A DNA stretch of 64,000 nucleotides from Thermoplasmata archaeon (GCA_034667725.1 JAXDQS010000003.1:224001-288000); one strand, 5' to 3'. Positions 1 to 19,978 are shown, counted from the stretch's first letter. Numbers and translations: made by a program. Notes: generated by a model from the letters alone, not told the origin.

Positions 1-141
1 CAACAGGAGGAAAACCACCCTCCCCGAGCGCTCCGGAAACCCCTCCTGGGCCCCTCCTGGAGCACTTCGGCAAGGTTATCATCCTCCGCCATCTGTTGGC
101 CTCCTGGAGTTGGCTTCGGCCTCTCTGGAGGATGCCTCAAC

Positions 142-372
142 ATGCCCTACGAACACAAGACGAAGAAGGGGACCTATGTCCTGGCGACGCGCAACGTCGA
201 GCTGAAGGGTGGCCGCAAGCAGCAGATCTACTTCTTCTGCAAGACCGGCGCCAAGCTCAAGCCCGGCTGCAAGTGGTCCGAGATGCCCGCCGGCAAGAAG
301 GTCGGCATCAACGCCCGCACCGGCCTCCCCTTCCTGGCCAACGCGGTCGCGACCAAGAAGGCCGCGAAGTAA
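142..372 (+). CDS. small basic protein resembling Cc1-type archaeal chromatin/DNA-binding proteins
   Basis: 76 aa, Lys-rich. The pattern MPY.H..K.GTY.L...V.L.GG.KQ.IYFF...N.RTGLPFL resembles the Cc1 family from memory. GGAGG precedes the start, GGTTAT lies at ~75-80 and a pyrimidine tract follows the stop. Confidence 0.55.
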   Translation: MPYEHKTKKGTYVLATRNVELKGGRKQQIYFFCKTGAKLKPGCKWSEMPAGKKVGINARTGLPFLANAVATKKAAK

Positions 373-390
373 GGCCCCCAGGCCCGAAGC

Positions 391-420
391 CCTCTTCCCT
401 CCTTCTCCCCGTCTCTTTTC
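391..420 (+). terminator. C/T-rich tract, putative archaeal terminator
   Basis: cctcttccctccttctccccgtctcttttc just after the stop. Similar tracts at ~3587-3614, ~21801-21825 and ~24134-24159. Confidence 0.4.
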
Positions 421-424
421 GCGC

Positions 425-769
425 TCAAGCCTTCCGCAGCACCAGCAGGCCGCGCACGACCTTGTAGGCCACCGCCGCGCCCGCCAACGCCAGCGGCGCC
501 AGCAGCAGGTACGGCCAACTGGTCCTCGGCTCCGCCAGCACCACGCGCAGGCTCAGCACCGCCAGCGTGAAGAACAGCAGCAGCACGAACGCCACGCCCC
601 ACGACGTCAGCAGCCGCAGCACCAGCAGCAGCACCGGCGCGCCCAGCACGAACACGGCCCACCCCAAGTCGCCGCCGTTGAGGATCAGCCGCGCCGCCAG
701 GATGGCCAACAGCCACAGCCCGGCGCCCAGCAGCACGAAACGGCCGGCGCCGGCACGGGACTCCGCCAC
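425..769 (-). CDS. small multi-pass membrane protein
   Basis: C-terminal part of ORF 425..1291, trimmed to GTG at 769; about 4 hydrophobic segments. Confidence 0.65.
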   Translation of the reverse strand: MAESRAGAGRFVLLGAGLWLLAILAARLILNGGDLGWAVFVLGAPVLLLVLRLLTSWGVAFVLLLFFTLAVLSLRVVLAEPRTSWPYLLLAPLALAGAAVAYKVVRGLLVLRKA

Positions 770-823
770 GGCCGCGCGCAGGCGCCCGGCACCTTCAAGC
801 CTCCCCGTCCGCCTGCGCAGGCC

Positions 824-1201
824 ATGGACCCCGCAAGCCGCGCCGGCGCCTTCGTCGCAGGCGGCGCCCTCATCGGCGTCTGGCTGTTCTTCGTCCTGTT
901 CAAGGTCCCCGGCATCCACCTGGACGCCGGCCCCTGGCTGTTCTGGGGCGCCATCGGCCTCGTCATGGCCGGCGCCGGCCTCGGCGCCCGTTTCGCCACC
1001 CCCGTCGTCCGCATGGGCCTGTTCGTCGCCCTCGGCATCGCCGCCGGCCTCCTGGCCTCCGCCGCCGTCTTCCTCCAGGTCAGCGAGTCGTTCGCCGCCC
1101 TCCTCACCGCCTGCGGCGGCGCCATCATCGCCAGCGCCATCCCCCTCCAAGCCTGGCCCGACGCCACCCCCGCCGACGCCGAACGCGAGGCACAAGCCTG
1201 A
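824..1201 (+). CDS. small membrane protein
   Basis: ATG at 824 (MDPASRAGAF...); about 4 TM segments; divergent from the previous gene. Confidence 0.7.
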   Translation: MDPASRAGAFVAGGALIGVWLFFVLFKVPGIHLDAGPWLFWGAIGLVMAGAGLGARFATPVVRMGLFVALGIAAGLLASAAVFLQVSESFAALLTACGGAIIASAIPLQAWPDATPADAEREAQA

Positions 1202-1292
1202 AGGCGCCGCACGGAGCGAAGTGCCCGTGCAGCGAGTGCGGGGACTGGGACCGGGTCTTCCTGGAAGACCTGCGCCCCCCGCGGAAGACAAG

Positions 1293-1308
1293 GAAGAAGG
1301 GGTTATCT
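1293..1308 (+). promoter_or_regulatory. BRE/TATA-like promoter of rnpB
   Basis: Purine-rich GAAGAAGGGG followed by TTATCT about 26-30 nt upstream of the predicted RNase P RNA 5' end. Confidence 0.5.
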
Positions 1309-1331
1309 CCGCGACGAGCTAACGAGGAACC

Positions 1332-1638
1332 AACCCCGTCGCTTCAGGACGACTGACGGTAGCCCGCAAGGGCGGCTGAGGAAGGTCTCCGCATCTGCGC
1401 GCAAGCGCAACCTGCCGCCTCAAGGCGGTGTCTGGAGACGGACAGGGCTGGCGCAGAAACGACACAGCCGCGGGGCTGGGATGAAGGGGTCGCCCCGGAC
1501 GTCCCCCACGGACTTGCTGAAACGTGCCATGGCCTCAGGGGATGCAAGTCGCAAGGACGCTTAGTCGGATGTCGTCTGGCCGGCGGTCGTGAGGCCGCCC
1601 GGCGAAACAGAACGGAGCCTACTCGAGGCTGCGGGGTT
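1332..1638 (+). ncRNA. rnpB: RNase P RNA (archaeal type)
   Basis: Conserved regions in the correct order: GAGGAAGGTCTCCG (CR-I), GCAGAAAC, TGAAACG, GCAAG, GCTTAG..GATG and ACAGAACGGAGCCTAC (CR-V). P4 pairs CTCCG/CGGAG. Terminal P1 helix is AACCCCGTCGCTTC / GAGGCTGCGGGGTT. Confidence 0.9.
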
Positions 1639-1699
1639 CCCAGTCCTCCCATCCCAAGCACTTGCTGCCAAGGCAGCTGCGCGGGCGGCCGCACGTCGC

Positions 1700-1728
1700 G
1701 GCGCAAAAGCGCCTCGGCGCTTTGCGCC
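1700..1728. terminator. hairpin between convergent rnpB and lipoprotein gene
   Basis: GGCGCAAAAGCGCC-TC-GGCGCTTTGCGCC, a 13-bp stem with one bulge. Confidence 0.45.
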
Positions 1729-1732
1729 TGGC

Positions 1733-2569
1733 CTACTCGGGGCTGGGATCGACCGGCATCCAGCGAATCCGCACGTCCGTCGTGCTGACCCGGTGCAGCA
1801 GCCCAGGCAGGGCGGGCGGGCCGCCGTCGGCGTTCGCGGCCGCGAACACGGCTTGGCCGTCGCCGACGTTGGTGGCGTTGCTGTTGTCCCATTCGACGTG
1901 ACCGTCGGCGCGGCCGTCGGCGCCCTTGTGCCAGACGGCGTACGTCATGTCGAAGGCGCCGGCGGCCTCCTGCACGGCGAAGTCGAGGTTGAAGTCGATG
2001 TCGTTGGTGTCGACGGCGACGGTCTCGAGGCGGGTGCCGGGCGGGGCGGGGCTGGCGGTGAAGGCGAAGGCGGCGTCGGTCCAGGTCACGTTGGCGGCGG
2101 CGAGGTAGGCGCGCAGGGCGTCGTCGTCGGTGGCGGACTCCAGCGGGTAGAGGTCGAGGTCGTCGGGGCCTTGGTCGAGCTCGGCCGGCGGCTGCACCAC
2201 GAGGTAGGCGGCGAAGGTGGCGGACTGGGCCTGGTCGCCGCAGCGGCCGGTGTCGACGAAGACGTTGACGGTGGCGCCGGCGGCGTCGGCGGCCCCGAGC
2301 GTGAAGCCTTCCGGCAGCGGGTCGCCGACCAAGCCGCCTTCTTCGAACGCGGACTTGGGGAACGGGAAGAAGGCGTGCCATTGGTCGCATTCCTGCAGGT
2401 CGTAGGCCGGCTGCGCTGGGGGCGTGGTGGCGTTGCCCGCCTGGCCGGCGCCCGTCGTCGTGGCGGTAGGGCCGGTGGTGGCGGACTGGGACGGGGGGTC
2501 GTCGGGGCCGGAGCAGCCGGCCAGCAGGACGAGGGCCAGAAGCGCCGTCGCGAGGGCACGCACGCGCAT
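1733..2569 (-). CDS. predicted lipoprotein, function unknown
   Basis: MRVRALATALLALVLLAG|C lipobox, Thr/Pro linker, then a globular domain. Confidence 0.75.
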   Translation of the reverse strand: MRVRALATALLALVLLAGCSGPDDPPSQSATTGPTATTTGAGQAGNATTPPAQPAYDLQECDQWHAFFPFPKSAFEEGGLVGDPLPEGFTLGAADAAGATVNVFVDTGRCGDQAQSATFAAYLVVQPPAELDQGPDDLDLYPLESATDDDALRAYLAAANVTWTDAAFAFTASPAPPGTRLETVAVDTNDIDFNLDFAVQEAAGAFDMTYAVWHKGADGRADGHVEWDNSNATNVGDGQAVFAAANADGGPPALPGLLHRVSTTDVRIRWMPVDPSPE

Positions 2570-2706
2570 GGCCGGCGACCCGTGGCGGGCTTCTTGGGGC
2601 TGTTGGCTGGCGGTGGCGCGGGCACCATCGTTTCTCCTGCCAAGCATTAAGGCCCGCCTCCAATCCGGCCGTGCCTTCCCTTTGGGGAAGGAGGAAACTT
2701 GCCCCC

Positions 2707-3573
2707 ATGAAGAACCTCAGCCTTGCGCTCGCCGGCCTCCTGTTGGCCGTCCTTGCCGCCCCCGCCGTGGCCGCCGATGACGTCTCGGTCGCGCCCCCGA
2801 ACCCGTGCTACTACACGCAATGCCCGCCGCCTTGCCTGGCCTGCCCGCCGCCGGTCTGCCTCAGCTGCATCATCCCCGCGACCTGCGACCTGGAGGACCG
2901 CGAGTGCCACCCTGAGCCGATGGACTGGGCCTGCACCACCGGCCCGTCCGGCCTCGGCGGCGTCATCGGCGCCACCGTCGACTACGCCTTCACCCTGGCC
3001 TTGATCGGCTGCGTCGTGAGCCTCTCCGAGGCCAACGTCGCCCTGGACGCCACCGGCGACACGACCTACTACGCCTACATGCAGGCCCAGGACACCGCGG
3101 ACTTCGTGCTCGGCAGCACCCTGAGCATCCCGACCAACGAGGTCAAGCCCGCCGTCCAGGCCCTCCAGGACACCGTGGGCTACGAGTTCGCCCTGGTCTG
3201 CTCCTTCCTGCTGGGCCCCTCCGCCTGCACCGGCCCCGCGCCGCTGCCCGGCGCCTGCCCCGTCGACCTGCCGGACGCCGGCGGCGTCGTGGGCGCGGCG
3301 CTTGCCACCGCCGAGGCCGGCTGCGCTGCCGCCCAGGGCGGCGCGTCCGCGGCCGCGGGCCACGCCGTCGAGGCGGCCCGCGACGTCGCGTTCGCGGTCA
3401 GCGTCGTGCTGCGCAACTTCGGCGGCCACGCCAACGAGGTCGTCGACGGCGCCGAGGCGCACGCGGCGAACCTCGAGGGCCACGCCAACGACGCGGCCGG
3501 CGTCGCCCTGTGGGGCGCCCAGGCCGGCTACACGGCCACCTGCGGCTACCTGTTCGGCGCCTGCCCCGTCTAG
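2707..3573 (+). CDS. secreted Cys/Pro-rich protein with Ala-rich helical C-terminal region
   Basis: Signal peptide ending AVA-A; N-terminal Cys cluster (PCYYTQCPPPCLACPPPVCLSC); GGAGG upstream; pyrimidine tract downstream. Confidence 0.7.
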   Translation: MKNLSLALAGLLLAVLAAPAVAADDVSVAPPNPCYYTQCPPPCLACPPPVCLSCIIPATCDLEDRECHPEPMDWACTTGPSGLGGVIGATVDYAFTLALIGCVVSLSEANVALDATGDTTYYAYMQAQDTADFVLGSTLSIPTNEVKPAVQALQDTVGYEFALVCSFLLGPSACTGPAPLPGACPVDLPDAGGVVGAALATAEAGCAAAQGGASAAAGHAVEAARDVAFAVSVVLRNFGGHANEVVDGAEAHAANLEGHANDAAGVALWGAQAGYTATCGYLFGACPV

Positions 3574-3639
3574 GCCGCCTGCGGGTTCCTTTTTCCCCTC
3601 CTCCCAACCTTTTTGCAAGCGGCCCAGGTCGCGCGGCCC

Positions 3640-4380
3640 GTGAAGGACGCGCTCGCGGCATTCTACCACCGGCACCGCGTCCGCCGCCCGCGCACGCCGC
3701 CGGCCGGCCCCCGCGACCCCGTGCGGCTGGTGTGCTTCGACATGGACGGCGTCCTCATCGACGTCGGCTCGTCGTGGGTGATGGTGCACAAGCACTTCGG
3801 CGTCCAGAACGAGGCCAGCCTGCGGGCCTACCTCAACGGCGAGTTCGACGACCGCGAGTTCATCCGGCGCGACGCGGCGCTGTGGCTGCGGCTGCGGCCC
3901 AAGCTGGCGCGGGCCGACTTCGAGGAGATCTTCCGCGTGCCGCCGTTCATGCCGGGCGTGCAGGCGACGGTGGCGGCGCTGCGGGACGCCGGCGTCGAGA
4001 TGGCGATCGTCTCGGGCGGCGTCGACATCATGGCGGAGGAGGTGGCGCGCCGCCTCAGCATCCCGCGCGTGGCCGCCAACGGCTTCGAGTACGACGCCGC
4101 CGGGCACATCACGGGCGAGGGCGTGGTGCGGACGCCGCTCAACGACAAGGCCGCGCCGGTGGTGCGGTTCGCCGAGGAGTCGGGGATCCCGCTGCGCAAC
4201 GTCGCCTGCGTCGGCAACTCGCTGCCGGACGTGTCGATGTTCGAGGTGGCGGGCCGCAGCATCGCGTTCCACCCCGAGGACGACTACACCCGCGAGCACG
4301 CCACTTGGGTCGTCGAGCAGGGGCCGCTCGACCAGGTCGTGCCGCTGCTGCTCACGGCCGCTTCCGCTCGGCCACCTTGA
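3640..4380 (+). CDS. HAD-superfamily (IB) phosphatase, phosphoserine-phosphatase-like
   Basis: Motif I CFDMDGVL, motif II IVSGG, a Lys in NDK and motif IV-like VGNS.PD. Start uncertain (GTG 3640 or 3721). Confidence 0.8.
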   Translation: MKDALAAFYHRHRVRRPRTPPAGPRDPVRLVCFDMDGVLIDVGSSWVMVHKHFGVQNEASLRAYLNGEFDDREFIRRDAALWLRLRPKLARADFEEIFRVPPFMPGVQATVAALRDAGVEMAIVSGGVDIMAEEVARRLSIPRVAANGFEYDAAGHITGEGVVRTPLNDKAAPVVRFAEESGIPLRNVACVGNSLPDVSMFEVAGRSIAFHPEDDYTREHATWVVEQGPLDQVVPLLLTAASARPP

Positions 4381-7057
4381 CGGCCGCGTCGTCCTCCTGG
4401 CCGGCGCGCCGCAGCGGCCGGGGCCGTGCGGCCGGGCGGTCGGCGGGGTGGCCGGCGGCGCGGGCGGCGTGCTCCTGCACCAGCTCCAGGCCGGCGCGGA
4501 CGTCGTCCAGCTGAAGGACCACGAGGTCGCCGGGCTGGGCGAGGGCGAGGGCGCGCTCGATGGCGACGCGCTCGGAGTCGGCGGTCTCGAGGCGGGCGGC
4601 GTCGAAGCCCGTGTCGAGGATGCCTTGCCGCAGCACGGCCATGGTCTCGCCCGGGGCGCGGCGGCGCGGGTCCGGGTCGGAGAGCAGGATGTGGTCGTAC
4701 ATGGTGGCGAGCTTGGCGCCGAAGGCGAGGATGTCCTCGTCGCGCCGGTTGCCGGAGGCGTTGGCGGCGGCGATGACGCGGCCGCCGCGGCGCAGGCCGT
4801 CCACGACGCCTTGGAGGGCGGCCAGCGCGGGCGCGTTGTGGCCATAGTCCACCAGCACCTGGACCGGGCCGACCTCGAGGAGGTTCATGCGGCCGGGCAG
4901 CGCGCTTGGCGACGGCGTGAAGCCGCGCAGCGCCGCGTCGATGGTCGCGACCGGGACGCCGAGGGCGCGGCAGGCGGCGACGGCGGCCATCGCGTTCTGG
5001 ACGTTGAAGCTCGCGACCCCGCCCATCGTGACGGGATAGTCGCGCACGTCGCCGACGGTCTCGTCGCCGTTGCGGTCGCGCAGCACGATCTCGGTGCCGA
5101 CGACGGTGACGGCGGTGCCGCTGCGGGCCACATGCTCGGTGAGCTCGCGGCCGGCGGGGTCGAGGCCGAACAGGATGGTGCGGCAGCGCAGCGTGTCGGC
5201 GTAGCGCGCAACCGCCGGGTCGTCGGCGTTCAGCACGGCGGTGCCGCTGCGGGCGACGTTCTCGACCACGACCGCCTTGAGCTCGGCGAGGTCCTGCAAG
5301 GTCTCGATGCCGCCCTCGCCGAGGTGGTCGCTTGCGACGTTGAGGAACACGCCGACGTCGGCGCGGTCGTAGCCGAGGCCGCGGCGGAGGATCCCGCCGC
5401 GGGCGACCTCCAGCACGGCGTGGTCGACCAGCGGGTCGGTCAGCACGGCGCGGGCGCCGTCGGGGCCGGAGTAGTCGCCTTCGAGGGCGGGCTCGCCGTC
5501 GATCTCGACGCCCGTCGTGGTGGCGATGCCGACCCGGCCGCCGGCCGCGGCCAGGATGTGGCTCACCAGGCGGACGGTGGTGGTCTTGCCGTTGGTGCCC
5601 GTGATCGCGACGATGGGGATGCGGCCGTCGGCGCCGTTCGGAAACAGCATGTCCACGATGGGGGAGCCGACGTTGCGCGGCCGGCCGACGGTCGGCTGGG
5701 CGTGCATCCGCAGGCCGGGCGCCGCGTTGACCTCCACGACGCCGCCGCGGGTCTCTGCGAGCGGGCGCGCGAGCGTGGGGGCGACGATGTCGAGGCCCAT
5801 GATGTCGAGGCCGACCATGCGGCTGACGCGCTCGGCCATCCGGCGCACCAAGGGGTGGACCTCGTTGGTGACGTCGGTGGCCGTGCCGCCGGTGCTGAGG
5901 TTGGCGGTGCCCTTCAGGATCACGGCCTGGCCGGCGGCGGGGACCGACTCCAGGCCCATGCCTTGGCGGTTGAGCTGGCGGTGGCTCTCGGCGTCGATCT
6001 CGATGCGGGTGAGCCAGGACTCGTGGCCGTCGGCGCGGCGCGGGTCGGCGTTGGCCTCTTCCACCAGTTGCGCGACGGTGCGGCGGCCGTCGCCGACGAC
6101 CTGCGCGGGGTCGCGGCGGGCGGCGGCGATGAAGCGGTGGCCGACGACAAGGACGCGGAAGTCGGCGCCCTCCAGGTGCTGCTCGACCAGGACGGCGGCG
6201 TCGACCTCGCGGGCGGCGGCGAACCCGATGGCCAGCTCGGCGGGCGTGCGCAGCCCGGTGGAGACGCCGCGGCCGTGGTTGCCGACGCGGGGCTTGACGA
6301 CGACGGGGTAGCCCAGCTCGTCGGCGGCCTCCAGGGCGCCTTCGAGCGAGTGGACCAGCTCGCCGCGCGGGACCGGCACGCCGGCCTCCTCCAGGATGGC
6401 CTTGGTGCGGTCCTTGTCGTCGGCGATCTCGCAGCCGATGCAGCTGGTGTTGCCGGTGAGCGACGCCTGGATGCGCTGCTGCCGGGCGCCGTGGCCGAGC
6501 TGGAGGTAGCTGGAGGCGTTGAGGCGCAGCACCGGGATGCCGCGGCGGCGCGCCTCGCCGACGATGGTGTTGGTGGACGGGCCGAGGCTTTGGCGGCGGT
6601 GCAGCGCCTCCAGGTGCTCGGTGACGGCCTTGACGTCGAAGGGGACGCCTTGCAGCACGGCCGTGACGAGGTCCACGGCGGCAAGCCCTGCCTCCAGGCC
6701 GGCCTCCTCGGTGCGGTAGCGGTAGACCACGGTGTAGACGCCGGGCTCGTGGGTCTCGCGGGTCTTGCCGAAGCCGACCTTGAGGCCGGCCATGCACTGC
6801 AGCTCGATGGCGACGTGCTCGACGACGTGGCCCATGTAGGTGCCTTCGGCGAGGCGCTCGGCGAAGCCGCCGACGTGGCCGCGGCTGCAACGGTGCTCGC
6901 GCAAGGTCGGCAGCAGCTCGAGCAGCCGCTCGTTGAACCCGGGCACCGCGTTGCTGGGCGTGGCGGCGTGCTCCTCCAGGTCCAGGCGCATGAAGACGGT
7001 CGGGTAGGGCGAGTAGTGGTTCGGGCCTGGGATGGCGCGTTGTTCGAGGACCTTCAT
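4352..7057 (-). CDS. cphA: cyanophycin synthetase CphA1
   Basis: 901 aa. N-domain has GPN and C-x19-HxxEH; ATP-grasp G-domain has LGPST, VVKPRVGNHGRG, ANLSTGG and EVNAAPGLRMH; Mur-ligase M-domain has ITGTNGKTT, EVARGG, VLNADD, PGRMN and DYGHN. ATGA overlap with cphB. Confidence 0.95.
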   Translation of the reverse strand: MKVLEQRAIPGPNHYSPYPTVFMRLDLEEHAATPSNAVPGFNERLLELLPTLREHRCSRGHVGGFAERLAEGTYMGHVVEHVAIELQCMAGLKVGFGKTRETHEPGVYTVVYRYRTEEAGLEAGLAAVDLVTAVLQGVPFDVKAVTEHLEALHRRQSLGPSTNTIVGEARRRGIPVLRLNASSYLQLGHGARQQRIQASLTGNTSCIGCEIADDKDRTKAILEEAGVPVPRGELVHSLEGALEAADELGYPVVVKPRVGNHGRGVSTGLRTPAELAIGFAAAREVDAAVLVEQHLEGADFRVLVVGHRFIAAARRDPAQVVGDGRRTVAQLVEEANADPRRADGHESWLTRIEIDAESHRQLNRQGMGLESVPAAGQAVILKGTANLSTGGTATDVTNEVHPLVRRMAERVSRMVGLDIMGLDIVAPTLARPLAETRGGVVEVNAAPGLRMHAQPTVGRPRNVGSPIVDMLFPNGADGRIPIVAITGTNGKTTTVRLVSHILAAAGGRVGIATTTGVEIDGEPALEGDYSGPDGARAVLTDPLVDHAVLEVARGGILRRGLGYDRADVGVFLNVASDHLGEGGIETLQDLAELKAVVVENVARSGTAVLNADDPAVARYADTLRCRTILFGLDPAGRELTEHVARSGTAVTVVGTEIVLRDRNGDETVGDVRDYPVTMGGVASFNVQNAMAAVAACRALGVPVATIDAALRGFTPSPSALPGRMNLLEVGPVQVLVDYGHNAPALAALQGVVDGLRRGGRVIAAANASGNRRDEDILAFGAKLATMYDHILLSDPDPRRRAPGETMAVLRQGILDTGFDAARLETADSERVAIERALALAQPGDLVVLQLDDVRAGLELVQEHAARAAGHPADRPAARPRPLRRAGQEDDAAVKVAERKRP

Positions 7058-7998
7058 GCGTTCGACGGCTCCTTCCGGATCGAGGGGGCGGGCTTGGGGA
7101 GGACGGCGTGCGCGCCGTTGGGCGGGAGGGCGCCGTTGGTGGCGCCTTCCGGGGGGACGAGGGGCACCGGCTGGGGCGGCGGCCTGAGGTAGCGGCGCTC
7201 GCCGAGGTGGAAGCCGTGGCCGGCGACAAGGGTATGGACCGTGATGTTCTCGACCGCGATGGGCTCGTGCAGCGCGATGTCGGTGAGGTTGGTGTAGCGC
7301 AGGTCGTGGCCGTCCACCAGCACCACGACGCCCTTGCCGAACACCTCCAGCTCCTCGCCGTGGCGGACGATGATGCCGGTGTCCTCGCCGAGGCCGACGC
7401 CCATGAGGCCGGGGTTCGAGGCGACGACCTCCAAGAGGCGGCTCAGGCGGCCCCGGTCGAGGAAGTGGGTGTCGAGGACGGCCTTGCTGATGAGGCCCAG
7501 GCCCGGCGTCATCTGGACGGAGCCCTTGCGCATGCCGCGGTTGGGCTCGCCCTCGAAGATCATGGTGGCGCTCATGGCGGCCGCCCCCGCCGAGGTGCCG
7601 GCCACGACGCCGCCGTTGCGGTGGTGGTGCCGGATGGCCGCGGCGACCGCGGTGCCGCCCAAGAGCGTCGTGAGGCGGAGCTGGTCGCCGCCGGTGAAGA
7701 ACACGACGTCGCAGTCGCGCACCCGGTCCACGTACTCCTGCAGGTCCGCGGCGCGGCGGTCCCGGATGTCCATGACCTCGACCTTGGGGATGCCGAGGGC
7801 GCCGAACGCCTTGCGGTACTCGACGGCCATCTGGTCGGGGAACTGGCTGGCGGTCGGGATGACCTCGACGTGGCGCGTGCCGCCGGCCGGCAGCTCGCAC
7901 ATCTGCTTGAGGACGGCCTTGCCGAACTCCTTGTCCTCGTTGCCGCCGATGGCCACCAGGAAGCCGAGCGGCGGCGACCGCAACGGGCCCTCGGTCAC
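7054..7998 (-). CDS. cphB: cyanophycinase (peptidase S51)
   Basis: IGGNEDK, IPTAS, FFTGGDQLRL, catalytic GTSAG, DTHF..RGRL.RL and GEDT. GTGA overlap with iaaA. Confidence 0.93.
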   Translation of the reverse strand: MTEGPLRSPPLGFLVAIGGNEDKEFGKAVLKQMCELPAGGTRHVEVIPTASQFPDQMAVEYRKAFGALGIPKVEVMDIRDRRAADLQEYVDRVRDCDVVFFTGGDQLRLTTLLGGTAVAAAIRHHHRNGGVVAGTSAGAAAMSATMIFEGEPNRGMRKGSVQMTPGLGLISKAVLDTHFLDRGRLSRLLEVVASNPGLMGVGLGEDTGIIVRHGEELEVFGKGVVVLVDGHDLRYTNLTDIALHEPIAVENITVHTLVAGHGFHLGERRYLRPPPQPVPLVPPEGATNGALPPNGAHAVLPKPAPSIRKEPSNA

Positions 7999-8954
7999 TT
8001 GGCGGCCTCCGTGAGGGCGGCCCACGCCATGTCGCGGTTCGAGCCGCCGGCGTAGCGCTTGCCCCAGAGCAGGATGACGCCGACGTCCACCAGGTCGGGG
8101 AACATCTTGAGGGCGTTCTCGACCGCCTTCTTCGGGCTGGTGCCGGACTCCAGGTCCTGGTGGATGCGGAACGAGAGGATCTTGCGGGCGAGGAAGTCGC
8201 CGTCGCCGGTCACGGCCACGGCGCCGCGCTCGCTGGCGTAGATGCCGCAGCCGATGAGCGGCACGTCGCCGACGCGGCCCAGGAGCGTGCTGATGGTGCC
8301 GCCCGTCGAGCTGGCGGCGGCGTAGGTCTTGCCGTCGGTGCACACACAGCCCACCGTGTCCGAGCCGCCGCCCATGGCCTCCTTGAGGTCGCGGGCGTAG
8401 TTCCAGTGCGACGCCAGGCTGGGCAGGTCCCACGCGTACTCCTGCGCCTGCGCCTTGGCGAGCCGCAGCACCTTGAGCACCTGGGTGTACTTCTGGCGCG
8501 CCAGTTCGGTGGTCGGGTCGTACTCCTCGAAGCCGCGGGCGCGGGCGTAGACGATGGCGCCGTCCCCCGCCAGCAGGTTGTGCGGCGTCTCGTGCAGCAG
8601 GCGCGCGACCCGGACCGGGTTCTTGACGCCCCGGATGTTGGTGACGCCGCCGAACTTGCCGTCGGAGGTCATGCAGGCGGCGTCCATCTCGATGGTCTTG
8701 CCGTCGAGGCGCAGGTTGGAGCCGGTGCCGGCGTTGAAGCGCGGGTCGTCCTCCAGGTGCGCGCAGCCGGCCACGGCCGCGTCCAACGGCGTCCCGCCCT
8801 TCCGGAGGACCTCCATGCCTGCGCGGCACGCCGCCTCCGGCCCGTCGACCTCGGTGCGGCTCGAGCCCGCGCCGCCGTGGGCCAGGATGGCGCGCCGGAG
8901 CTTGGGGGCCTTCGCCACCGTGGGCGGCGAGACGTACCTGCGGGTGGGGCTCAT
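7995..8954 (-). CDS. iaaA: isoaspartyl dipeptidase / plant-type L-asparaginase (Ntn hydrolase)
   Basis: HGGAG, LEDDPRFNAGTG, EMDA, autoprocessing site D|TVG, STGG and GRVGD.P..GCG.YA. Confidence 0.9.
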   Translation of the reverse strand: MSPTRRYVSPPTVAKAPKLRRAILAHGGAGSSRTEVDGPEAACRAGMEVLRKGGTPLDAAVAGCAHLEDDPRFNAGTGSNLRLDGKTIEMDAACMTSDGKFGGVTNIRGVKNPVRVARLLHETPHNLLAGDGAIVYARARGFEEYDPTTELARQKYTQVLKVLRLAKAQAQEYAWDLPSLASHWNYARDLKEAMGGGSDTVGCVCTDGKTYAAASSTGGTISTLLGRVGDVPLIGCGIYASERGAVAVTGDGDFLARKILSFRIHQDLESGTSPKKAVENALKMFPDLVDVGVILLWGKRYAGGSNRDMAWAALTEAAK

Positions 8955-9091
8955 GCGCCGCCGGGCACCGGGCCGCTTGCGGTTGAGGGTTGCGCCCGCG
9001 GCTCCCGATTGCCCACGCCAACCCGTTGCCGGCATCGCAAGCAAGGTCGTTGGGGCCCGGCGAGCCACGATTAGCCAGAATCTACAAATGG

Positions 9092-9101
9092 TTGCATGCA
9101 A
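9092..9101. promoter_or_regulatory. perfect palindrome TTGCATGCAA in the divergent cph/wHTH intergenic region
   Basis: 10-bp palindrome in an AT-enriched patch; candidate operator only. Confidence 0.3.
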
Positions 9102-9158
9102 AGCGGGCCAGGATTGTCCAAAAACGAGACAAAGGCCCTGTTCCCTGCCGCCCCTCGG

Positions 9159-9734
9159 ATGACCGAGCCGCCGCCGACCCGCCTCCACCCGCTGCGCGTC
9201 CTGGAAAGCCCCATGCGCGCCGCCATGGTCGCCGCCGTCCTCGACACCCCAGGATTGTTCCTGGGCGAGCTGGCCGCCCGCGTCGGCTGCTCGCGCGCCA
9301 CCGCCCGCCACCACCTCAAGGTGCTGCGCCGCGCCGGCCTCCTGAGCATCGTCTCCTGGGGCCGCCGCACCGCCGTGTTCCCCGCCACCATGCAGACGGC
9401 CGAGCAGGACGCCTGGGCCGCCTTGCAGCGCGGCCGCACCATGGACCTCGCCCGCCTGGTGCGCGCCGAGCCCGGCCTCGTGCAGAAGGAGATCACCGCC
9501 CGCCTCGGCCTCACCCGCAAGATGCTGCGCCGCTACGTCGACGCCCTGGTGCTCGGCGGCCTGCTGCAAGAGCTCGAGGACCCGCCGTTCCGCACCTACC
9601 ACCCCACTCCGCTCCTAGGCCTCCTGCTCGACCTGGGGACGCCGGCAGGGATGATGGTGCCCGAGGCCGTCTGGATCGAGGAGAAACCCGACGACGAGGA
9701 GCTCGTGAAGGCGGCCACGGCCGGTCGCGTCTAA
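9159..9734 (+). CDS. tandem winged-HTH transcriptional regulator (archaeal double-wHTH type)
   Basis: Two HTH units: PGLFLGELAARVGCSRATARHHL and PGLVQKEITARLGLTRKMLRRYV. Confidence 0.8.
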   Translation: MTEPPPTRLHPLRVLESPMRAAMVAAVLDTPGLFLGELAARVGCSRATARHHLKVLRRAGLLSIVSWGRRTAVFPATMQTAEQDAWAALQRGRTMDLARLVRAEPGLVQKEITARLGLTRKMLRRYVDALVLGGLLQELEDPPFRTYHPTPLLGLLLDLGTPAGMMVPEAVWIEEKPDDEELVKAATAGRV

Positions 9735-9759
9735 ACGCCCCCCACGCATCCGCAGGGCG

Positions 9760-10389
9760 ATGGCGCGAACGACCGGGACGGCCGTCCTGATGGCGCTCGC
9801 GGGAGCGGCCATCCTGGCGGGCGGCGTGCTGCATCCGCAGGTGCCGCCGGAGCCCGGCGACCAACAGGCCGCCATCGCGGCGTCCACCCTGTGGGCGCCG
9901 GCGCATTGGCTGCTGACCCTCGGCCAGGCCGCGGCCGTGGCCTGCGTGGCCATGGTCGCCGTCGTCGCCGCCCGTTCCGCGCTGGCCGTCGCGGGCGGCG
10001 CGGCCTTGGCGCTTGGCTTGGCGTTCGGCGTGCTCGGCACCCTGCTTGCGGCCACGGGGCTCCGGGCCGCCGCCGTCAGCGGCGACACGGCGGCGTTCGC
10101 GGCCTGGGGCGACGCCGCCATGGGCGTCGGCTGGCTGTGCCTGCTGCTGTCGGCGGCGGGTGCCGCCGCATGGGGCTGGGACATGATGCGCGCTCCCTGG
10201 CTGCTGCCAAAGCTGGGCGCCTTGGTGCTGCTGGCCGGAAGCCTGCTGTTGCTGGTTGCCGCCGCAGCGGTCCCCTACGACCACTGGTGGACGCACCAAT
10301 ACGTCCTGCGGGCCGGCGCCCTGGGGCTGGGCGTGGGGCTGCTGGGGCTTGCGGCCGCCTGGCGGGCTAGGCCTTCGGCAGCGGCTTGA
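9760..10389 (+). CDS. multi-pass membrane protein
   Basis: About 6 hydrophobic helices with LHP and W..AH motifs. Confidence 0.65.
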   Translation: MARTTGTAVLMALAGAAILAGGVLHPQVPPEPGDQQAAIAASTLWAPAHWLLTLGQAAAVACVAMVAVVAARSALAVAGGAALALGLAFGVLGTLLAATGLRAAAVSGDTAAFAAWGDAAMGVGWLCLLLSAAGAAAWGWDMMRAPWLLPKLGALVLLAGSLLLLVAAAAVPYDHWWTHQYVLRAGALGLGVGLLGLAAAWRARPSAAA

Positions 10390-11839
10390 CCGCCGGCCCG
10401 CGCAGCACGGCGCCGTCGGGGCCGAAGCGCGACCCATGGCAAGGACAGTCCCAGCTCTGCTCCAGCGCGTTCCAGGCCACGATGCAGCCCTTGTGCGTGC
10501 ACGCCGCCTGGACCGTGTGCTCCGCGTCGTCCATCGTCCGGCAGACGGCGACCTTGTGCAGGCCCCGGTCCTCGATGTGGCCCTCGCCGGGCCCAAGCGG
10601 GGCGTGGGAGCCACGCTGCAAGCGGTCGCCGACGAGCCCGCGCGCGATGGTGGCGCCGGAGGCCAGCATCCGCGGGTTGAGGATGCCCTTCGCGAGCCGG
10701 TCGGCGCTGTAGGGATCGTACAGGGCCGCAAGCGGGTTCTCCTTGCCCAGCACGAGGTCCGTCAGCAACTGGGCGGCCACCGTGCCTTGGGTCATGCCCC
10801 AGGCACGGAACCCGGTCGCGGCGTAGGTGCCCTTGGCCTTCGGGGTGTAGCGCCCGACCAGCGGCAGGTCGTCCAACGGATAGTAGTCCTGGCTCGACCA
10901 ATGGTAGCGCGCGGCCCCGGCGCCGAGCTGGCGCGAGAACTCCGCGAGCGCCTCGTAATGGGGATGCGGCTTCTTCTCGCCCACCGCATGCGTCTCGCCC
11001 ACGAACACCAGCATCGGGCCGTCGGGCCCCTCGAACGGCCGCACGCTGCGGCGCGGCTCGTCCGCGCTCACGTGCATCCCCCGAACCTGGCTCGACCCCG
11101 CGTCCGCCGCCAACCCGTACTCGCGCTTGGCGTGCATCCGCGTCACGAAGAACCAGTCGTCCAAGACCGGGACGTTGGTGGCCACCAAGACCTGCTGCGC
11201 CGTCACCGCGCCGCCCGCCGTCGTGACCTTGCAGCGCTCCCCGTCCTCGATGCCCGTGACGCGCGAACCCTCGAAGACCACGACGTCGCGGGCCAGGCCG
11301 AGCAGATACTTGCGGGGATGGAAGTGGCCTTGCCCGTCGAACCGGACGGCCGCCGCGACCTGGAACGGCAGATCGGTGTCCACCACCAACGACGCCGGCA
11401 GCCCCAGCTCCTGCGACGCCTCCGCCTCCTGCGCGAACTCCTTGGCGCGGGCATCGTGCGTTGTGTAGACATGGTTGGGCGCGTCCACCCACTGCGCACC
11501 CTCCGACCGCGACCGCATGAAGCCGACCGCACGCTCATTGGCCTGCGCATGGACTCGAACCCGCTCCACCCCGAAGCGGGTGGTGAGGCGATGATAGCCG
11601 ATGCCATGCTGCGACGTCACCTTGGCCGTCGTCTGGCCCGACACGCCCGCCCCGACGGCGCCCGCCTCGACCACGACGACCCTCTTGCCGGCTTGACGCA
11701 GCAAATGGGCCGCGGTCAGGCCGACGATGCCCGCACCCACGATGGCGACGTCCGCGTCCACTTCACCCTGTAAGGCAGGCCTCGCCTCCGACGGCGCAGT
11801 GGCGATCCAGACCGATTCATGGCGCCCGGCGACGGTCAT
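10367..11839 (-). CDS. FAD-dependent oxidoreductase with C-terminal Rieske [2Fe-2S] domain (YhfW-like)
   Basis: GAGIVG dinucleotide-binding motif, SGQTTAK, Rieske motifs CTHKGC and WDCPCHGS. Confidence 0.9.
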   Translation of the reverse strand: MTVAGRHESVWIATAPSEARPALQGEVDADVAIVGAGIVGLTAAHLLRQAGKRVVVVEAGAVGAGVSGQTTAKVTSQHGIGYHRLTTRFGVERVRVHAQANERAVGFMRSRSEGAQWVDAPNHVYTTHDARAKEFAQEAEASQELGLPASLVVDTDLPFQVAAAVRFDGQGHFHPRKYLLGLARDVVVFEGSRVTGIEDGERCKVTTAGGAVTAQQVLVATNVPVLDDWFFVTRMHAKREYGLAADAGSSQVRGMHVSADEPRRSVRPFEGPDGPMLVFVGETHAVGEKKPHPHYEALAEFSRQLGAGAARYHWSSQDYYPLDDLPLVGRYTPKAKGTYAATGFRAWGMTQGTVAAQLLTDLVLGKENPLAALYDPYSADRLAKGILNPRMLASGATIARGLVGDRLQRGSHAPLGPGEGHIEDRGLHKVAVCRTMDDAEHTVQAACTHKGCIVAWNALEQSWDCPCHGSRFGPDGAVLRGPAVKPLPKA

Positions 11840-12018
11840 CGCGACGGCATGCGGGCGGTGGCGATAAACCACCGGGAGGCGGCACTGCGGGGCGACGTCG
11901 CGAACCCTTGAAGGCGACGACTTCCAACATGGGGTTGATTGACGACGCACGCGCCAACAGGAGGGCAGCAAAAGGGGTGTCCAAAACCCCCTTGCTGCTC
12001 CGTCCCTCCTGTTCTCGA

Positions 12019-12037
12019 AAGTGGGCCCGTCCAGATT
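12019..12037. repeat. 19-bp direct copy of the tRNA-Pro 3' end (att-like)
   Basis: AAGTGGGCCCGTCCAGATT is identical to 12153-12171. Confidence 0.75.
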
Positions 12038-12155
12038 CGAGGCCAAGGCCACTGCGTGGCCTCGGCCATGACCTCGCGCCTGACGGCGCTTGGCAAATCT
12101 GGACAGCCTCTGCCGAGGCGCACCGGCGCGCCAAGAGCCGCCGTGCTGCACGAAG

Positions 12156-12228
12156 TGGGCCCGTCCAGATTTGAACTGGAGGCTACTGCACCCCAAGCAG
12201 CAAGGTTACCAAACTACCCCACGGGCCC
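12156..12228 (-). tRNA. tRNA-Pro(TGG)
   Basis: GGGCCCG/CGGGCCC acceptor stem, anticodon loop CT-TGG-GG, T-loop GTTCAAATC; no intron. Confidence 0.93.
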
Positions 12229-12358
12229 CGCGTGCCTGGGGCGCTGCGGGCCTCCGTCATCGCCGAAGCTTGGAGGCCTGGGGTCTCCCCGGGCACGTGC
12301 CAAGGGCCCGAGGGCCCCTGGTGCAGGCGCGCCACAAACCGGCGGTATAAGGCCCCTT

Positions 12359-14053
12359 CTACCGGCGGCGGGGGCGCGCCATGCCGGCGGCCGCGAGCAG
12401 GGCGACGACGGCGAGCCCGGCCCATGGCGCGGGGATGTCGAAGCTGTCGTCGCTGCTGGAGCTGCTGGCGGGCGTCGTGGTGGCGGGCGGGATGCCGACC
12501 TCGATGGTGTAGTCGAACTCGACGATGTTGTTGGCTTCGTCCTTTTCGGGGACGAGGTTGTCGGGGTCGATGGCGAGGACGTAGTGGTTGGTGGTGGGCT
12601 GCTCGTCGACGGTGCGTTCGAGGCGGGTCTCGGCGCCGGGCTGGAGGGCGGGGATGTCGAGGCTGAGCCAGGGTTGGCCGTCGCGGGTGTAGGTGAGCTT
12701 GGTGGGCGCGGACGCGGCTTCGCCTGAGTTGCGGACGTTGAGCCAGAGCAGGGTGGTGGTGAGCTTGCCGTCGGCGGGGTGGAGGTCGGCCTGCTTGGGC
12801 CGCACGGGCCCGAAGGCGTAGAGGGTGCCGTCGGTGGCGGCGACGAACGCCATGCTGCCGTCGATGGCGGGGCTGGTGCTGACGGCGGCGGGGGTCTCGA
12901 CGGTGCGCAGGATGGTGCCGTTGCTGGCGGCGATCCAGTAGACGCGCTTGTCTTCGGAGCCGACGGTGACGATGCCGTTGGCGATGGCGGGGCTGGAGGT
13001 GACGGGCTCGAGGTTGCTGCCTGCGACGGTTTCCCAGACCTTGGTGCCGTCGCCGGTGTTGAGGGCGTAGACGCGGCCGGTGTTGGTGCCGACAAAGACG
13101 CGGTCGCCGGAGTTGGCGGGGCTGGAGTGGACCTTGGCGCCGCGGGCGGTGCTGTCGCCGACGGGGTCGGGGGCCTGGAAGCTCCAGTCGGGGGTGTGGA
13201 AGGCGCCGTTGCAGGGGTTGTTGCCTTCGCCCGAGGCGGTGGCGAGGTAGCCGCGGACGTAGCCGTCGTAGCTGCCGACGACGACGCGGGTGGTGCCTTG
13301 GTGGGTGGCGATGGTGGGGGCGCCCACGACGATGTCGTCGGTCTTGTGAATCCAGCGGATGTTGGTCTTGCCGTCGCCGTTGCCGTCCTCGGCGAGGGCG
13401 ACGACGTAGTGGTTGAGGGCGCCGAAGAACACCTTGCCGCCGAAGACGGCGGGGGCGCCGCGGATGGGCATGGCGGCCACAGGGTTGGTGCAGGTCCAGC
13501 CGGTGGCGGTCGCGAACGTGGCGGTGAGGCGGATCTCGGTGAGCTTGAAGGTCCAGAGGAGGGTGAGCGTGCTGGCGAGGTAGGCGCGCAGCTCGCCGGC
13601 TTCGTTGCCGACGAACAGCTTGCCTTCGTGCTCGGTGATGGAGCCGAGGGTGGCGCCGACGCTGGCGGTGTGCTCGACGCGGCCGTCGCGCAGGTTGAGC
13701 GCCTTGAGGTTGCCGGCCTTGTCGACGACGTAGGCGCGTTCGCCCGCGATGGCGCCGGTGCCTTCGACGCCGGCGTCCATCTGGTGGCGCCACAGCTCCT
13801 TGCCGGTGCGGCTGTCGAGCGCCTGGACGAGACCGGCGGCCGACGCGGTGAGCAGGAGGTGGTCCTTCAGGATGGGGCTGGCCTTGGCCTGGGCGTCGCC
13901 TTCGGCCTTGACGGTCCACCAGGTCTCGGCGGGGACGCCGTAGGCGGTGCCGCTGGCGAAGCCGGTGTTGCGGTCGTCGCCGTGGAACGAGGCCCAGTCG
14001 CCGGCGGCGGCCGGCGCCAGGAGCAAGCAGGCCAGCAACGGGGCGAGACGCAC
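12359..14053 (-). CDS. secreted PQQ-like beta-propeller + CARDB domain with C-terminal sorting/anchor signal
   Basis: Signal peptide, W..FHGD..NTG, repeated SSP/GKELW propeller blades, CARDB-like IDPDNLVPEKDEANN, Ser/Thr linker, then IPAPW-TM-RPRRR. Confidence 0.85.
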   Translation of the reverse strand: MRLAPLLACLLLAPAAAGDWASFHGDDRNTGFASGTAYGVPAETWWTVKAEGDAQAKASPILKDHLLLTASAAGLVQALDSRTGKELWRHQMDAGVEGTGAIAGERAYVVDKAGNLKALNLRDGRVEHTASVGATLGSITEHEGKLFVGNEAGELRAYLASTLTLLWTFKLTEIRLTATFATATGWTCTNPVAAMPIRGAPAVFGGKVFFGALNHYVVALAEDGNGDGKTNIRWIHKTDDIVVGAPTIATHQGTTRVVVGSYDGYVRGYLATASGEGNNPCNGAFHTPDWSFQAPDPVGDSTARGAKVHSSPANSGDRVFVGTNTGRVYALNTGDGTKVWETVAGSNLEPVTSSPAIANGIVTVGSEDKRVYWIAASNGTILRTVETPAAVSTSPAIDGSMAFVAATDGTLYAFGPVRPKQADLHPADGKLTTTLLWLNVRNSGEAASAPTKLTYTRDGQPWLSLDIPALQPGAETRLERTVDEQPTTNHYVLAIDPDNLVPEKDEANNIVEFDYTIEVGIPPATTTPASSSSSDDSFDIPAPWAGLAVVALLAAAGMARPRRR

Positions 14054-14127
14054 GCGGGTGGACCTGGGTCCTGCATAAAGAACACGTGCGCTGGCCGGCG
14101 AGGCCTGGGGCGGGGGGTGGCGGCCCC

Positions 14128-14132
14128 TATAA
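14128..14132 (+). promoter_or_regulatory. TATA box of the lipid operon (leaderless)
   Basis: TATAA 27-23 nt upstream of GTG 14155. Confidence 0.5.
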
Positions 14133-14154
14133 GCCGGGGAAGCTTGGGCGGCGC

Positions 14155-16564: not shown

Positions 16565-16587
16565 GCACGCCTGGGGTCCGACGAAGC

Positions 16588-18398: not shown

Positions 18399-18437
18399 AA
18401 CGCAAGCTTTTCCCATCGGCCGGCGCGTCGCGGGGCA

Positions 18438-19061: not shown

Positions 19062-19103
19062 CGGCTCACAACCTCTTTGAAGCGCCCCAGGAGTGTTCCG
19101 GCC

Positions 19104-19958: not shown

Positions 19959-19978
19959 GTCAAAGGCCGAGCCGGGCA

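What the first reader, a model, noticed from the sequence alone, without database searches (positions are those of the whole stretch)
4352..8954. Complete cyanophycin synthesis-and-recycling operon (iaaA-cphB-cphA) in an archaeal genome
Seen: three genes coupled by GTGA/ATGA overlaps encoding an isoaspartyl dipeptidase, a cyanophycinase and a full three-domain CphA1 with intact catalytic motifs, on a contig carrying many archaeal markers. GC and codon style look like the neighbours, so this is not an obviously recent insertion. Known: CphA makes the multi-L-arginyl-poly-L-aspartate nitrogen store, CphB releases beta-Asp-Arg and IaaA cleaves it; to my knowledge this polymer has been described only in bacteria. 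Inference: this archaeon stores nitrogen as cyanophycin granules using an ameliorated, bacterially derived module.
Basis: partly seen in the sequence, partly recalled or inferred. Interest (0 to 1): 0.88.

Follow-up and report, generated by a model that had tools for sequence, protein, structure and literature searches.

The report
Archaeal cyanophycin make-and-break operon
A soil archaeon of the Thermoplasmatota carries an intact three-gene operon for making and fully recycling the nitrogen-storage polymer cyanophycin; the genes are real and native to archaea, but such genes are common in this phylum and have been noted in archaeal genomes before, so this extends a known system.

Summary
Three minus-strand genes at 4352-8954, joined by ATGA and GTGA overlaps, encode an Asparaginase_2 Ntn-hydrolase, a cyanophycinase and a three-domain CphA1 with every checked motif intact.

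The genome is archaeal. Archaeal RNase P RNA, GGGP synthase, DGGGPL reductase and Hel308 lie on the same contig, on both sides of the operon. Base composition is native. A second record of different length is identical across both junctions. Read mapping could not be run.

The "bacterially derived, only in bacteria" part is not supported as stated:
- The nearest CphA1s (64-66% identity) are in three other species of the same genus.
- CphA1 passes its curated cut-off in 35 of 401 sampled genomes of the phylum, a rate similar to bacterial phyla.
- In my tree the archaeal sequences form an old assemblage. One multi-phylum bacterial clade is nested inside it.

A 2018 preprint already noted cyanophycin synthesis and degradation genes in Heimdallarchaeia genomes. 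This scan has also reported archaeal cph cassettes on other DNA. I found no report of the polymer itself in an archaeon.

Verdict: a new member of a known kind, of moderate interest.

The parts
7995..8954 (-). iaaA-like gene, first in the operon: Asparaginase_2 (Ntn-hydrolase) family, putative beta-Asp-Arg (isoaspartyl) dipeptidase, 319 aa
   Evidence: Pfam PF01112 scores 207 bits. NF007589 scores only 99 bits against a cut-off of 567. The autoprocessing and nucleophile site TVGCV (Thr200) aligns with the first residue of solved beta subunits. STGG, GRVGDVPLIGCG and TGDGD are conserved. There is no SD-like sequence before the ATG.
7054..7998 (-). cphB, cyanophycinase (peptidase S51), 314 aa, GTG start overlapping the iaaA stop (GTGA)
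   Evidence: TIGR02069 scores 245.5 bits against a cut-off of 126.6. The match to PDB 7uqv has E = 1.9e-59, with GTSAG (Ser), DTHF (His) and GEDT (Glu) aligned. A GGAGG sits 8 nt before the start. The N-terminus shows no signal-peptide-like hydrophobic stretch.
4352..7057 (-). cphA, cyanophycin synthetase 1 (N, G and M domains), 901 aa, ATG overlapping the cphB stop (ATGA)
   Evidence: TIGR02068 scores 1100.7 bits against a cut-off of 850. It aligns end to end with SuCphA1 (PDB 7lg5, E = 3e-226). The N-domain Cx19HxxEH motif lies at residues 57-81. G-domain KPxxGNHGRG, TANLSTGG and EVNAAPG are present, as are M-domain GTNGKTT, DHLG, NADD, DYGHN and GNRRD.
4352..4380 (.). 29-nt convergent overlap of the non-conserved CphA C-terminal tail with the 3' end of the conserved HAD phosphatase gene (3613-4380, +)
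   Evidence: Gene calls are. HAD homology to same-genus genomes runs to residue 253 of 255, that is, into the overlap. The sequence is shown.
8955..9113 (.). Divergent intergenic region between iaaA and a two-wHTH (HTH_20/ArsR-type) regulator gene. It holds the only AT-rich patch (9065-9139, 43-50% GC) in a 72% GC background and is a candidate promoter region.
   Evidence: Sequence, sliding GC, regulator Pfam hits. Promoter function was not tested.
9114..9734 (+). Divergently transcribed HTH_20/ArsR-type regulator gene, a possible but unconserved regulator of the operon
   Evidence: Pfam PF12840 at 1.2e-11. It is not found beside the operon in same-genus genomes.
4352..12150 (.). Variable segment: the cph operon, the regulator, a hypothetical gene and a DAO-Rieske oxidoreductase gene. 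It lies between two blocks that are conserved in same-genus genomes but sit on different contigs there.
   Evidence: BLASTN of window 1-20000 against five same-genus genomes and a gene-by-gene comparison.

Best explanation
This is a genuine, chromosomal, archaeal operon for the full cyanophycin cycle. CphA1 uses ATP to polymerise Asp and Arg into multi-L-arginyl-poly-L-aspartate. Its N-domain zinc-peptidase motif predicts that it makes its own primers. When nitrogen or carbon is needed, cytoplasmic cyanophycinase cuts the polymer to beta-Asp-Arg, and the Ntn-hydrolase encoded by the first gene splits the dipeptide into Asp and Arg. The three genes are translationally coupled, with 4-nt overlaps and internal ribosome-binding sites. 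As in bacterial cphB-cphA clusters, net synthesis or breakdown must then be set after transcription, by substrate levels and by the insolubility of the granule. The operon belongs to an old, diverse Thermoplasmatota branch of the CphA1 family. It sits in a flexible part of the chromosome and is an accessory trait: 4 of 13 species of the genus have it. Shown here: gene identity, motif integrity, archaeal host, native composition, distribution and phylogeny. Inferred: the polymer product, the granules, the substrate of the first enzyme and the regulation.
For: - Family membership above curated cut-offs for CphA and CphB.
- Full-length alignment to solved CphA1 and CphB structures with catalytic residues conserved. 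Cx19HxxEH, the motif that defines primer-independent CphA1s in PMC9262961, is present.
- Thr200 nucleophile and Asp-binding motifs in the Ntn-hydrolase.
- ATGA and GTGA overlaps and SD-like sites.
- Archaeal RNase P RNA 2.7 kb to one side, and DGGGPL reductase and GGGP synthase 5.4-7.6 kb to the other.
- The operon's tetranucleotide distance to the genome mean lies at the 75th percentile of genome windows. GC3 is 0.97-0.99 and the codon score is above the window median.
- A JGI contig of different length (146 kb) is 100% identical over 18.7 kb spanning both junctions.
- The same iaaA-cphB-cphA order occurs in three other species of the genus, in separately assembled MAGs.
- Within the genus, cyanophycinase occurs only in the four genomes that have cphA.
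- CphA1 was found in 16 of 38 genomes of the order and 41 of 401 of the phylum sample.
- The window's CphA groups with same-genus sequences (support 100), then with another Thermoplasmatota family.
Against: - There is no biochemical or microscopic evidence for the polymer in any archaeon. None was found in seven literature searches.
- The first gene fails NCBI's IaaA equivalog cut-off, so its substrate is inferred from family and position.
- Same-genus CphA, CphB and IaaA are only 63-69% identical to the window's, against 78-87% for a flanking housekeeping gene. They also lie in different neighbourhoods. Inheritance within the genus is therefore not simply vertical.
- The second record may come from the same reads, so contig integrity is supported but not proven.
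Confidence: 0.8

Rival explanations
1. Assembly or binning artefact: a bacterial cph fragment was joined into an archaeal contig.
For: A synteny break with same-genus genomes begins right at the HAD/cphA junction. The two conserved blocks that flank the variable segment lie on different contigs in relatives. Read mapping could not be done.
Against: Archaeal genes flank the operon on both sides of a 666-kb contig. Composition is native. An identical second record of different length covers both junctions. Most tellingly, the nearest CphA, CphB and IaaA homologues are in other archaeal MAGs of the same genus, not in bacteria.
Confidence: 0.03
2. Recent horizontal import from bacteria that has since been ameliorated.
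For: CphA1 is far better known in bacteria. The operon lies in a variable chromosomal segment and is patchy in the genus, present in 4 of 13 species.
Against: The best bacterial identity is 49-53%, against 64-66% for the same genus and 57-59% for another archaeal family. In the 99-row tree the window sits inside a 56-row part dominated by 37 archaeal sequences. Random samples of Pseudomonadota, the Clostridia phylum and Actinomycetota fall mostly in the other part. The operon's Ntn-hydrolase belongs to an archaeal lineage that includes the genome's own stand-alone paralogue. It is separated by a long branch from the IaaA of the bacterial sister clusters.
Confidence: 0.05
3. The locus mainly serves to break down scavenged cyanophycin or isoaspartyl peptides. 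CphA is inactive, or makes a polymer of different composition (for example Lys-rich or soluble).
For: Two of the three genes are degradative. The genome holds a second cyanophycinase and a second Asparaginase_2 gene elsewhere. Archaeal cyanophycinase-only genomes have been described (PMC9723716). The amino-acid specificity of the M domain was not examined.
Against: All checked CphA1 motifs in all three active sites are intact. Neither hydrolase has a signal-peptide-like N-terminus, and no transporter gene lies in the operon. In the genus, cyanophycinase never occurs without cphA.
Confidence: 0.1

Closest known systems
cphA1-cphB-iaaA cluster of Roseivivax halodurans and related Rhodobacterales (Sharon et al. 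2023, PMC10206079)
   Same: It has the same three enzyme families next to each other. CphA is 50% and CphB about 44% identical. Its CphA falls in the bacterial clade that is nested among the archaeal sequences in my tree.
   Different: In the bacteria iaaA is transcribed divergently from cphB-cphA and is only 33-38% identical to the window's. In the archaeon all three genes are co-directional and overlapping. The Ntn-hydrolase belongs to a separate, archaeal lineage.
Synechocystis sp. UTEX2470 CphA1 (PDB 7lg5/7txu), a primer-independent cyanophycin synthetase 1
   Same: Full-length alignment (residues 1-861, 757 bits). It has the same N, G and M domain order, the Cx19HxxEH motif and the ATP-grasp and Mur-ligase motifs.
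   Different: The host is archaeal. The window's protein has a roughly 40-residue low-complexity C-terminal tail that runs into the antisense of the neighbouring gene.
Cyanophycinase CphB (PDB 7uqv, 3en0)
   Same: S51 fold family, with the Ser/His/Glu motifs aligned.
   Different: The window's protein has a roughly 40-residue C-terminal extension beyond the solved enzymes (314 aa against about 275).
Other archaeal cph loci: sister genera of the same family (four-gene operon), other Thermoplasmatota families (cphB-cphA pairs), and the Heimdallarchaeia MAGs noted by Bulzu et al. (10.1101/385732)
   Same: They share the cphB-cphA core. The same family, the same order and family f15 also have the co-directional iaaA-like gene.
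   Different: This genus has one fully intact cphA1. Sister genera add a second cphA' with an intact M domain, a degenerate G domain and no N-domain motif. In most other families no iaaA-like gene was seen in the short flanks that were fetched.

Membership tests
Cyanophycin synthetase 1 (CphA1) | Score above the curated equivalog cut-off of TIGR02068 | tested here: met
   1100.7 bits against a cut-off of 850, covering model positions 1-861 of 862.
Cyanophycin synthetase 1 (CphA1) | Three-domain architecture: N domain, ATP-grasp G domain, Mur-ligase M domain | tested here: met
   Pfam Cyanophycin_syn at residues 23-135, ATP-grasp families at 212-342, Mur_ligase_M at 485-696 and Mur_ligase_C at 722-848. 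End-to-end alignment to PDB 7lg5.
Cyanophycin synthetase 1 (CphA1) | Catalytic motifs of the G and M domains (GNHGRG, TANLSTGG, EVNAAPG; GTNGKTT P-loop, DHLG, NADD, DYxHN) | tested here: met
   All are present and aligned with SuCphA1 and the R. halodurans CphA1. The list of motifs rests on conservation in these alignments and on general knowledge of ATP-grasp and Mur ligases.
Cyanophycin synthetase 1 (CphA1) | N-domain Cx19HxxEH primer-generating site (marks primer-independent members; PMC9262961) | tested here: met
   C57 followed by 19 residues and then HVVEH, at residues 57-81.
Cyanophycin synthetase 1 (CphA1) | Makes multi-L-arginyl-poly-L-aspartate from Asp, Arg and ATP | not testable with these tools
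   Needs a recombinant enzyme assay.
Cyanophycinase CphB (peptidase S51) | Score above the TIGR02069 equivalog cut-off | tested here: met
   245.5 bits against a cut-off of 126.6.
Cyanophycinase CphB (peptidase S51) | Ser-His-Glu catalytic residues | tested here: met
   GTSAG, DTHF and GEDT align with the same motifs of 7uqv. Assigning the triad to these motifs rests on my knowledge of the Synechocystis CphB structure.
IaaA / EcAIII-type isoaspartyl aminopeptidase (Asparaginase_2 Ntn-hydrolases) | Pfam Asparaginase_2 membership | tested here: met
   207 bits against a cut-off of 27.
IaaA / EcAIII-type isoaspartyl aminopeptidase (Asparaginase_2 Ntn-hydrolases) | Autoproteolytic Gly/Ser-Thr site with a Thr nucleophile, and Asp-binding GRxGD and TGxG motifs | tested here: met
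   SD-T200-VGCV aligns with the start of solved beta subunits (2gez_B, 4pu6_B). GRVGDVP and TGDGD are present.
IaaA / EcAIII-type isoaspartyl aminopeptidase (Asparaginase_2 Ntn-hydrolases) | Score above NCBI's beta-aspartyl-peptidase equivalog cut-off (NF007589) | tested here: not met
   99 bits against a cut-off of 567. The best PDB match has E = 1.2e-30. I file it as an Asparaginase_2 family member and putative isoaspartyl dipeptidase, not as an IaaA orthologue.
IaaA / EcAIII-type isoaspartyl aminopeptidase (Asparaginase_2 Ntn-hydrolases) | Hydrolyses beta-Asp-Arg | not testable with these tools
   Needs an enzyme assay.
Clustered cphA1 + cyanophycinase + iaaA locus (Sharon et al. 2023) | All three genes adjacent in one genome | tested here: met
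   Coordinates 4352-8954 with 4-nt overlaps. The definition and its frequencies in bacteria are in PMC10206079.

The most novel reading that the evidence does not exclude
Thermoplasmatota are an old, major reservoir of cyanophycin metabolism rather than occasional recipients. The multi-phylum marine and halophilic bacterial CphA1 clade (Rhodobacterales including Roseivivax, Trueperaceae, Desulfobacterota, some Gammaproteobacteria) would then have acquired its cphB-cphA core from archaea. In the 99-row tree this bacterial clade is nested among archaeal lineages, and the AU test rejects archaeal monophyly (p = 0.0115). However, the root is only a midpoint, cyanobacteria were not sampled, and the groups were named after the tree was seen.
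Probability: 0.25. Interest if true: 0.6.

Novelty: new member of a known kind. Interest (0 to 1): 0.45.

Why it matters
Cyanophycin is still described in the specialist literature as a bacterial polymer, and the large gene surveys covered bacterial genomes only (PMC10206079). This locus gives a clean, complete and probably primer-independent archaeal enzyme set. It comes from a high-GC soil Thermoplasmatota lineage and could be expressed directly to test whether archaea make the polymer. The counts gathered here show that the genes are as frequent in this archaeal phylum (about 9% of sampled genomes) as in Pseudomonadota or Actinomycetota. That bears on nitrogen storage in uncultured soil and sediment archaea. 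It also suggests a cultivation handle and offers a new source of enzymes for biopolymer production. It does not reveal a new mechanism.

Tried and rejected
- Independent strains: the metagenome-contig scan found no relative above about 55% identity, so it gave no second population with the same junctions.
- Mobile-element boundaries: no integrase was seen. No direct repeats bracket 4352-12150. The only tRNA-linked repeat (12019-12055 and 12153-12189) spans 134 nt and does not enclose the operon.
- Conserved neighbours: none beyond the three genes. The flanks differ in the same-genus genomes G001, G002 and G009.
- 16S rRNA: none in the assembly. Taxonomy therefore rests on marker genes and on NCBI titles of relatives. 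G017, G018 and G027 of the same family are titled 'Thermoplasmatota archaeon'.
- Cyanobacterial CphA1 for the tree: none could be reached. The plasmid search returned no cyanobacteria, and the genome scan by peptide patterns was already used.
- The Actinomycetota count of 21 of 201 includes one unpublished genome, G1061. Its locus L263 was left out of the tree, and no other claim rests on it.
- Opposite-strand long ORFs were rejected as high-GC artefacts.

Full report
**What is there.** I trained a codon-usage gene caller on this 71% GC genome.
- an iaaA-like gene at 7995-8954 (319 aa);
- cphB at 7054-7998 (314 aa, GTG start);
- cphA at 4352-7057 (901 aa).

JGI's own gene calls on an identical contig give the same three products. 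The junctions read ATGA and GTGA. GGAG-type ribosome-binding sites precede cphB and cphA but not the first gene, as expected for a coupled operon. The long ORFs on the other strand are high-GC artefacts.

**Identity of the proteins.**
- CphA scores 1100.7 bits on the TIGR02068 equivalog (cut-off 850). CphB scores 245.5 bits on TIGR02069 (cut-off 126.6).
- CphA aligns end to end with the solved Synechocystis UTEX2470 enzyme (7lg5, E = 3e-226).
- CphA keeps the G-domain motifs, the M-domain P-loop with DHLG, NADD and DYGHN, and the N-domain Cx19HxxEH zinc site. Sharon et al. showed that this site makes CphA1 primer-independent (PMC9262961).
- CphB keeps GTSAG, DTHF and GEDT against 7uqv.
- The first gene is an Asparaginase_2 Ntn-hydrolase (207 bits). 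It has a Thr200 nucleophile at the autoprocessing site and the Asp-binding motifs.
- The first gene reaches only 99 bits against the 567-bit cut-off of NCBI's IaaA model. Its role as a beta-Asp-Arg dipeptidase is therefore inferred from family and position.

**Is the host archaeal, and is the contig sound?** The assembly is 2.32 Mb in 26 contigs, estimated 90% complete and 0.7% contaminated. The window lies in the middle of a 666-kb contig.
- To one side of the operon on that contig lies archaeal RNase P RNA at 1337-1633.
- To the other side lie tRNA-Pro, DGGGPL reductase at 14382-15761, GGGP synthase at 16663-17301 and Hel308 at 55580-57763.
- Ribosomal protein S6e and archaeal SRP RNA lie on other contigs. 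The S6e search rang only in the four archaeal control genomes. The SRP RNA search passed its cut-off only in those four.
- The operon's tetranucleotide profile sits at the 75th percentile of genome windows. Its GC3 (0.97-0.99) and codon score are typical or better.
- A JGI metagenome contig of different length (146 kb) is 100% identical over 18.7 kb covering both junctions. It may derive from the same reads, so this is support, not proof.
- Read mapping was not possible.
- The strongest argument against a chimera does not depend on this assembly. The nearest homologues of all three proteins are in other, separately assembled archaeal MAGs of the same genus.

**Genomic setting.** Window 1-4352 and 12150-18400 are conserved in same-genus genomes but lie on different contigs there. 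The 7.8 kb between them is variable. It holds the operon, an HTH_20-type regulator, a hypothetical gene and a DAO-Rieske oxidoreductase.
- The non-conserved C-terminal tail of CphA runs 29 nt into the antisense of the conserved HAD phosphatase gene. HAD homology to relatives continues into that overlap.
- In G001, G002 and G009 the same iaaA-cphB-cphA operon sits in unrelated neighbourhoods. It is only 63-69% identical at the protein level, against 78-87% for the HAD gene.
- The genome also has a stand-alone second cyanophycinase (C10, 56% identical, above cut-off) and a second Asparaginase_2 gene (C3:207 kb, 46% identical).
- Within the genus, cyanophycinase is found only in the four genomes that have cphA, and in none of the nine that lack it.
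- The pathway is therefore a co-inherited accessory trait in a flexible part of the chromosome. I found no integrase and no bracketing repeats.

**Distribution.** CphA1 at E <= 1e-100 occurs in 16 of 38 genomes of the order. In an even sample of the phylum it occurs in 41 of 401 genomes, 35 of them above the cut-off. That is 23 of 162 genera, and 17 of 24 genomes in one family. NCBI titles of matching contigs name these genomes Thermoplasmatota or Thermoplasmatales archaea. For comparison, the same search gave:

| Phylum sampled | Genomes above the cut-off |
|---|---|
| Thermoplasmatota | 35 of 401 |
| Pseudomonadota | 17 of 301 |
| Phylum containing Clostridia | 81 of 251 |
| Actinomycetota | 21 of 201 (one is an unpublished genome, used for the count only) |

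**Phylogeny.** In FastTree and IQ-TREE trees the window's CphA groups with the three same-genus sequences (support 100), then with another Thermoplasmatota family.
- The 99-row tree splits with support 99 into two parts. One is all-bacterial (43 rows). The other (56 rows) holds all 37 archaeal sequences, one uncultured bacterium, and a single 18-row bacterial clade.
- That bacterial clade spans several phyla: Rhodobacterales including Roseivivax halodurans, Trueperaceae, Desulfobacterota and some Gammaproteobacteria. It is nested among the archaeal lineages.
- Forcing archaeal monophyly costs 82 log-likelihood units (AU p = 0.0115).
- Caveats: the root is a midpoint, cyanobacteria were not sampled, and the group was named after the tree was seen.
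- The operon's Ntn-hydrolase forms an archaeal clade together with the genome's own stand-alone paralogue. A long branch separates it from the divergently transcribed IaaA of the bacterial sister clusters. That gene was probably recruited separately in the two domains.

**Mechanism.** The most likely reading is the textbook cycle. CphA1 polymerises Asp and Arg with ATP and makes its own primers. Cytoplasmic CphB releases beta-Asp-Arg, and the Ntn-hydrolase frees Asp and Arg. Co-transcription of maker and breakers is normal for this system: 81% of bacterial genomes with both cphA1 and cyanophycinase cluster them (PMC10206079). Control is therefore presumably post-transcriptional. The divergent regulator and the AT-rich patch at 9065-9139 are candidate control elements but are not conserved.

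**Prior knowledge.**
- The specialist surveys covered bacteria only and call cyanophycin a bacterial polymer (PMC10206079, PMC9974463).
- Bulzu et al. noted in 2018 that two Heimdallarchaeia MAGs encode synthesis and degradation genes (10.1101/385732).
- The Culexarchaeia paper discusses archaeal cyanophycinases and remarks how little this has been discussed (PMC9723716).
- I found no paper on Thermoplasmatota CphA1 and no experimental demonstration in any archaeon.
- This scan has already reported archaeal cph cassettes on other DNA. Those are unchecked AI notes. My own phylum tally and tree agree with their gist.

**Verdict.** This is a new member of a known kind. It is a good candidate for the first biochemical test of archaeal cyanophycin, but it is not a new mechanism and not the first archaeal sighting of the genes.

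Noticed in passing
window 12019-12055 and 12153-12189 (tRNA-Pro GGG at 12155-12228, minus strand): The 3' end of tRNA-Pro is duplicated 134 nt away at 81% identity over 37 nt. This resembles the small gene-end and tRNA-end replacement cassettes that earlier notes describe in this genome. It does not bracket the cph operon.
   Followed up: partly
L127:2926-5253 (G017), L125:2926-5271 (G035), L126:5646-8198 (G016), L128:2941-4899 (G014): Sister genera of the same family and order carry a four-gene operon, iaaA-cphB-cphA1-cphA'. The second synthetase copy keeps all M-domain motifs but has lost GNHGRG, the TANLSTGG loop and the N-domain Cx19HxxEH. In two of these genomes (G017 and G035) the first copy has altered M-domain motifs (for example GNRLDDD, GERLAKE). 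This suggests that the G and M activities have been split between two proteins.
   Followed up: partly
G000 contig C10:368552-369295 (L212:6556-7398) and C3:207238-208170 (L213:6284-7183): There is a stand-alone second cyanophycinase (TIGR02069 252.7 bits, next to a 2-oxoacid:ferredoxin oxidoreductase). There is also a stand-alone second Asparaginase_2 gene, next to FHA, Ser/Thr-kinase and AsnC-type regulator genes. The second cyanophycinase also occurs in G002 and G009, at only 60-64% identity and without shared neighbours.
   Followed up: partly
loci L014-L084, L216, L217 (bacterial cphB-cphA clusters): One CphA1 clade with short internal branches spans Alphaproteobacteria, Gammaproteobacteria, Deinococcota (Trueperaceae) and Thermodesulfobacteriota, mostly marine or saline organisms. 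It is nested among Thermoplasmatota sequences in the tree. This may reflect an archaea-to-bacteria transfer followed by spread between bacteria.
   Followed up: partly
window 10367-11761 (-): A fusion of a DAO-type FAD oxidoreductase with a C-terminal Rieske 2Fe-2S domain lies in the same variable segment as the operon. G002 has a 57%-identical copy on another contig. Any link to arginine or aspartate catabolism is pure speculation.
   Followed up: no
window 20178-21785 and 22267-24120 (+): Two neighbouring large proteins are built of 'acidic double-disulfide' repeats (NF033662, 125 and 132 bits). They are probably surface proteins.
   Followed up: no
window 12359-14038 (-): A PQQ-like beta-propeller/CARDB protein gene lies between tRNA-Pro and the lipid-gene block. 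It is missing at this position in G001, where the tRNA region abuts the block directly. This is a second small indel in the neighbourhood.
   Followed up: no
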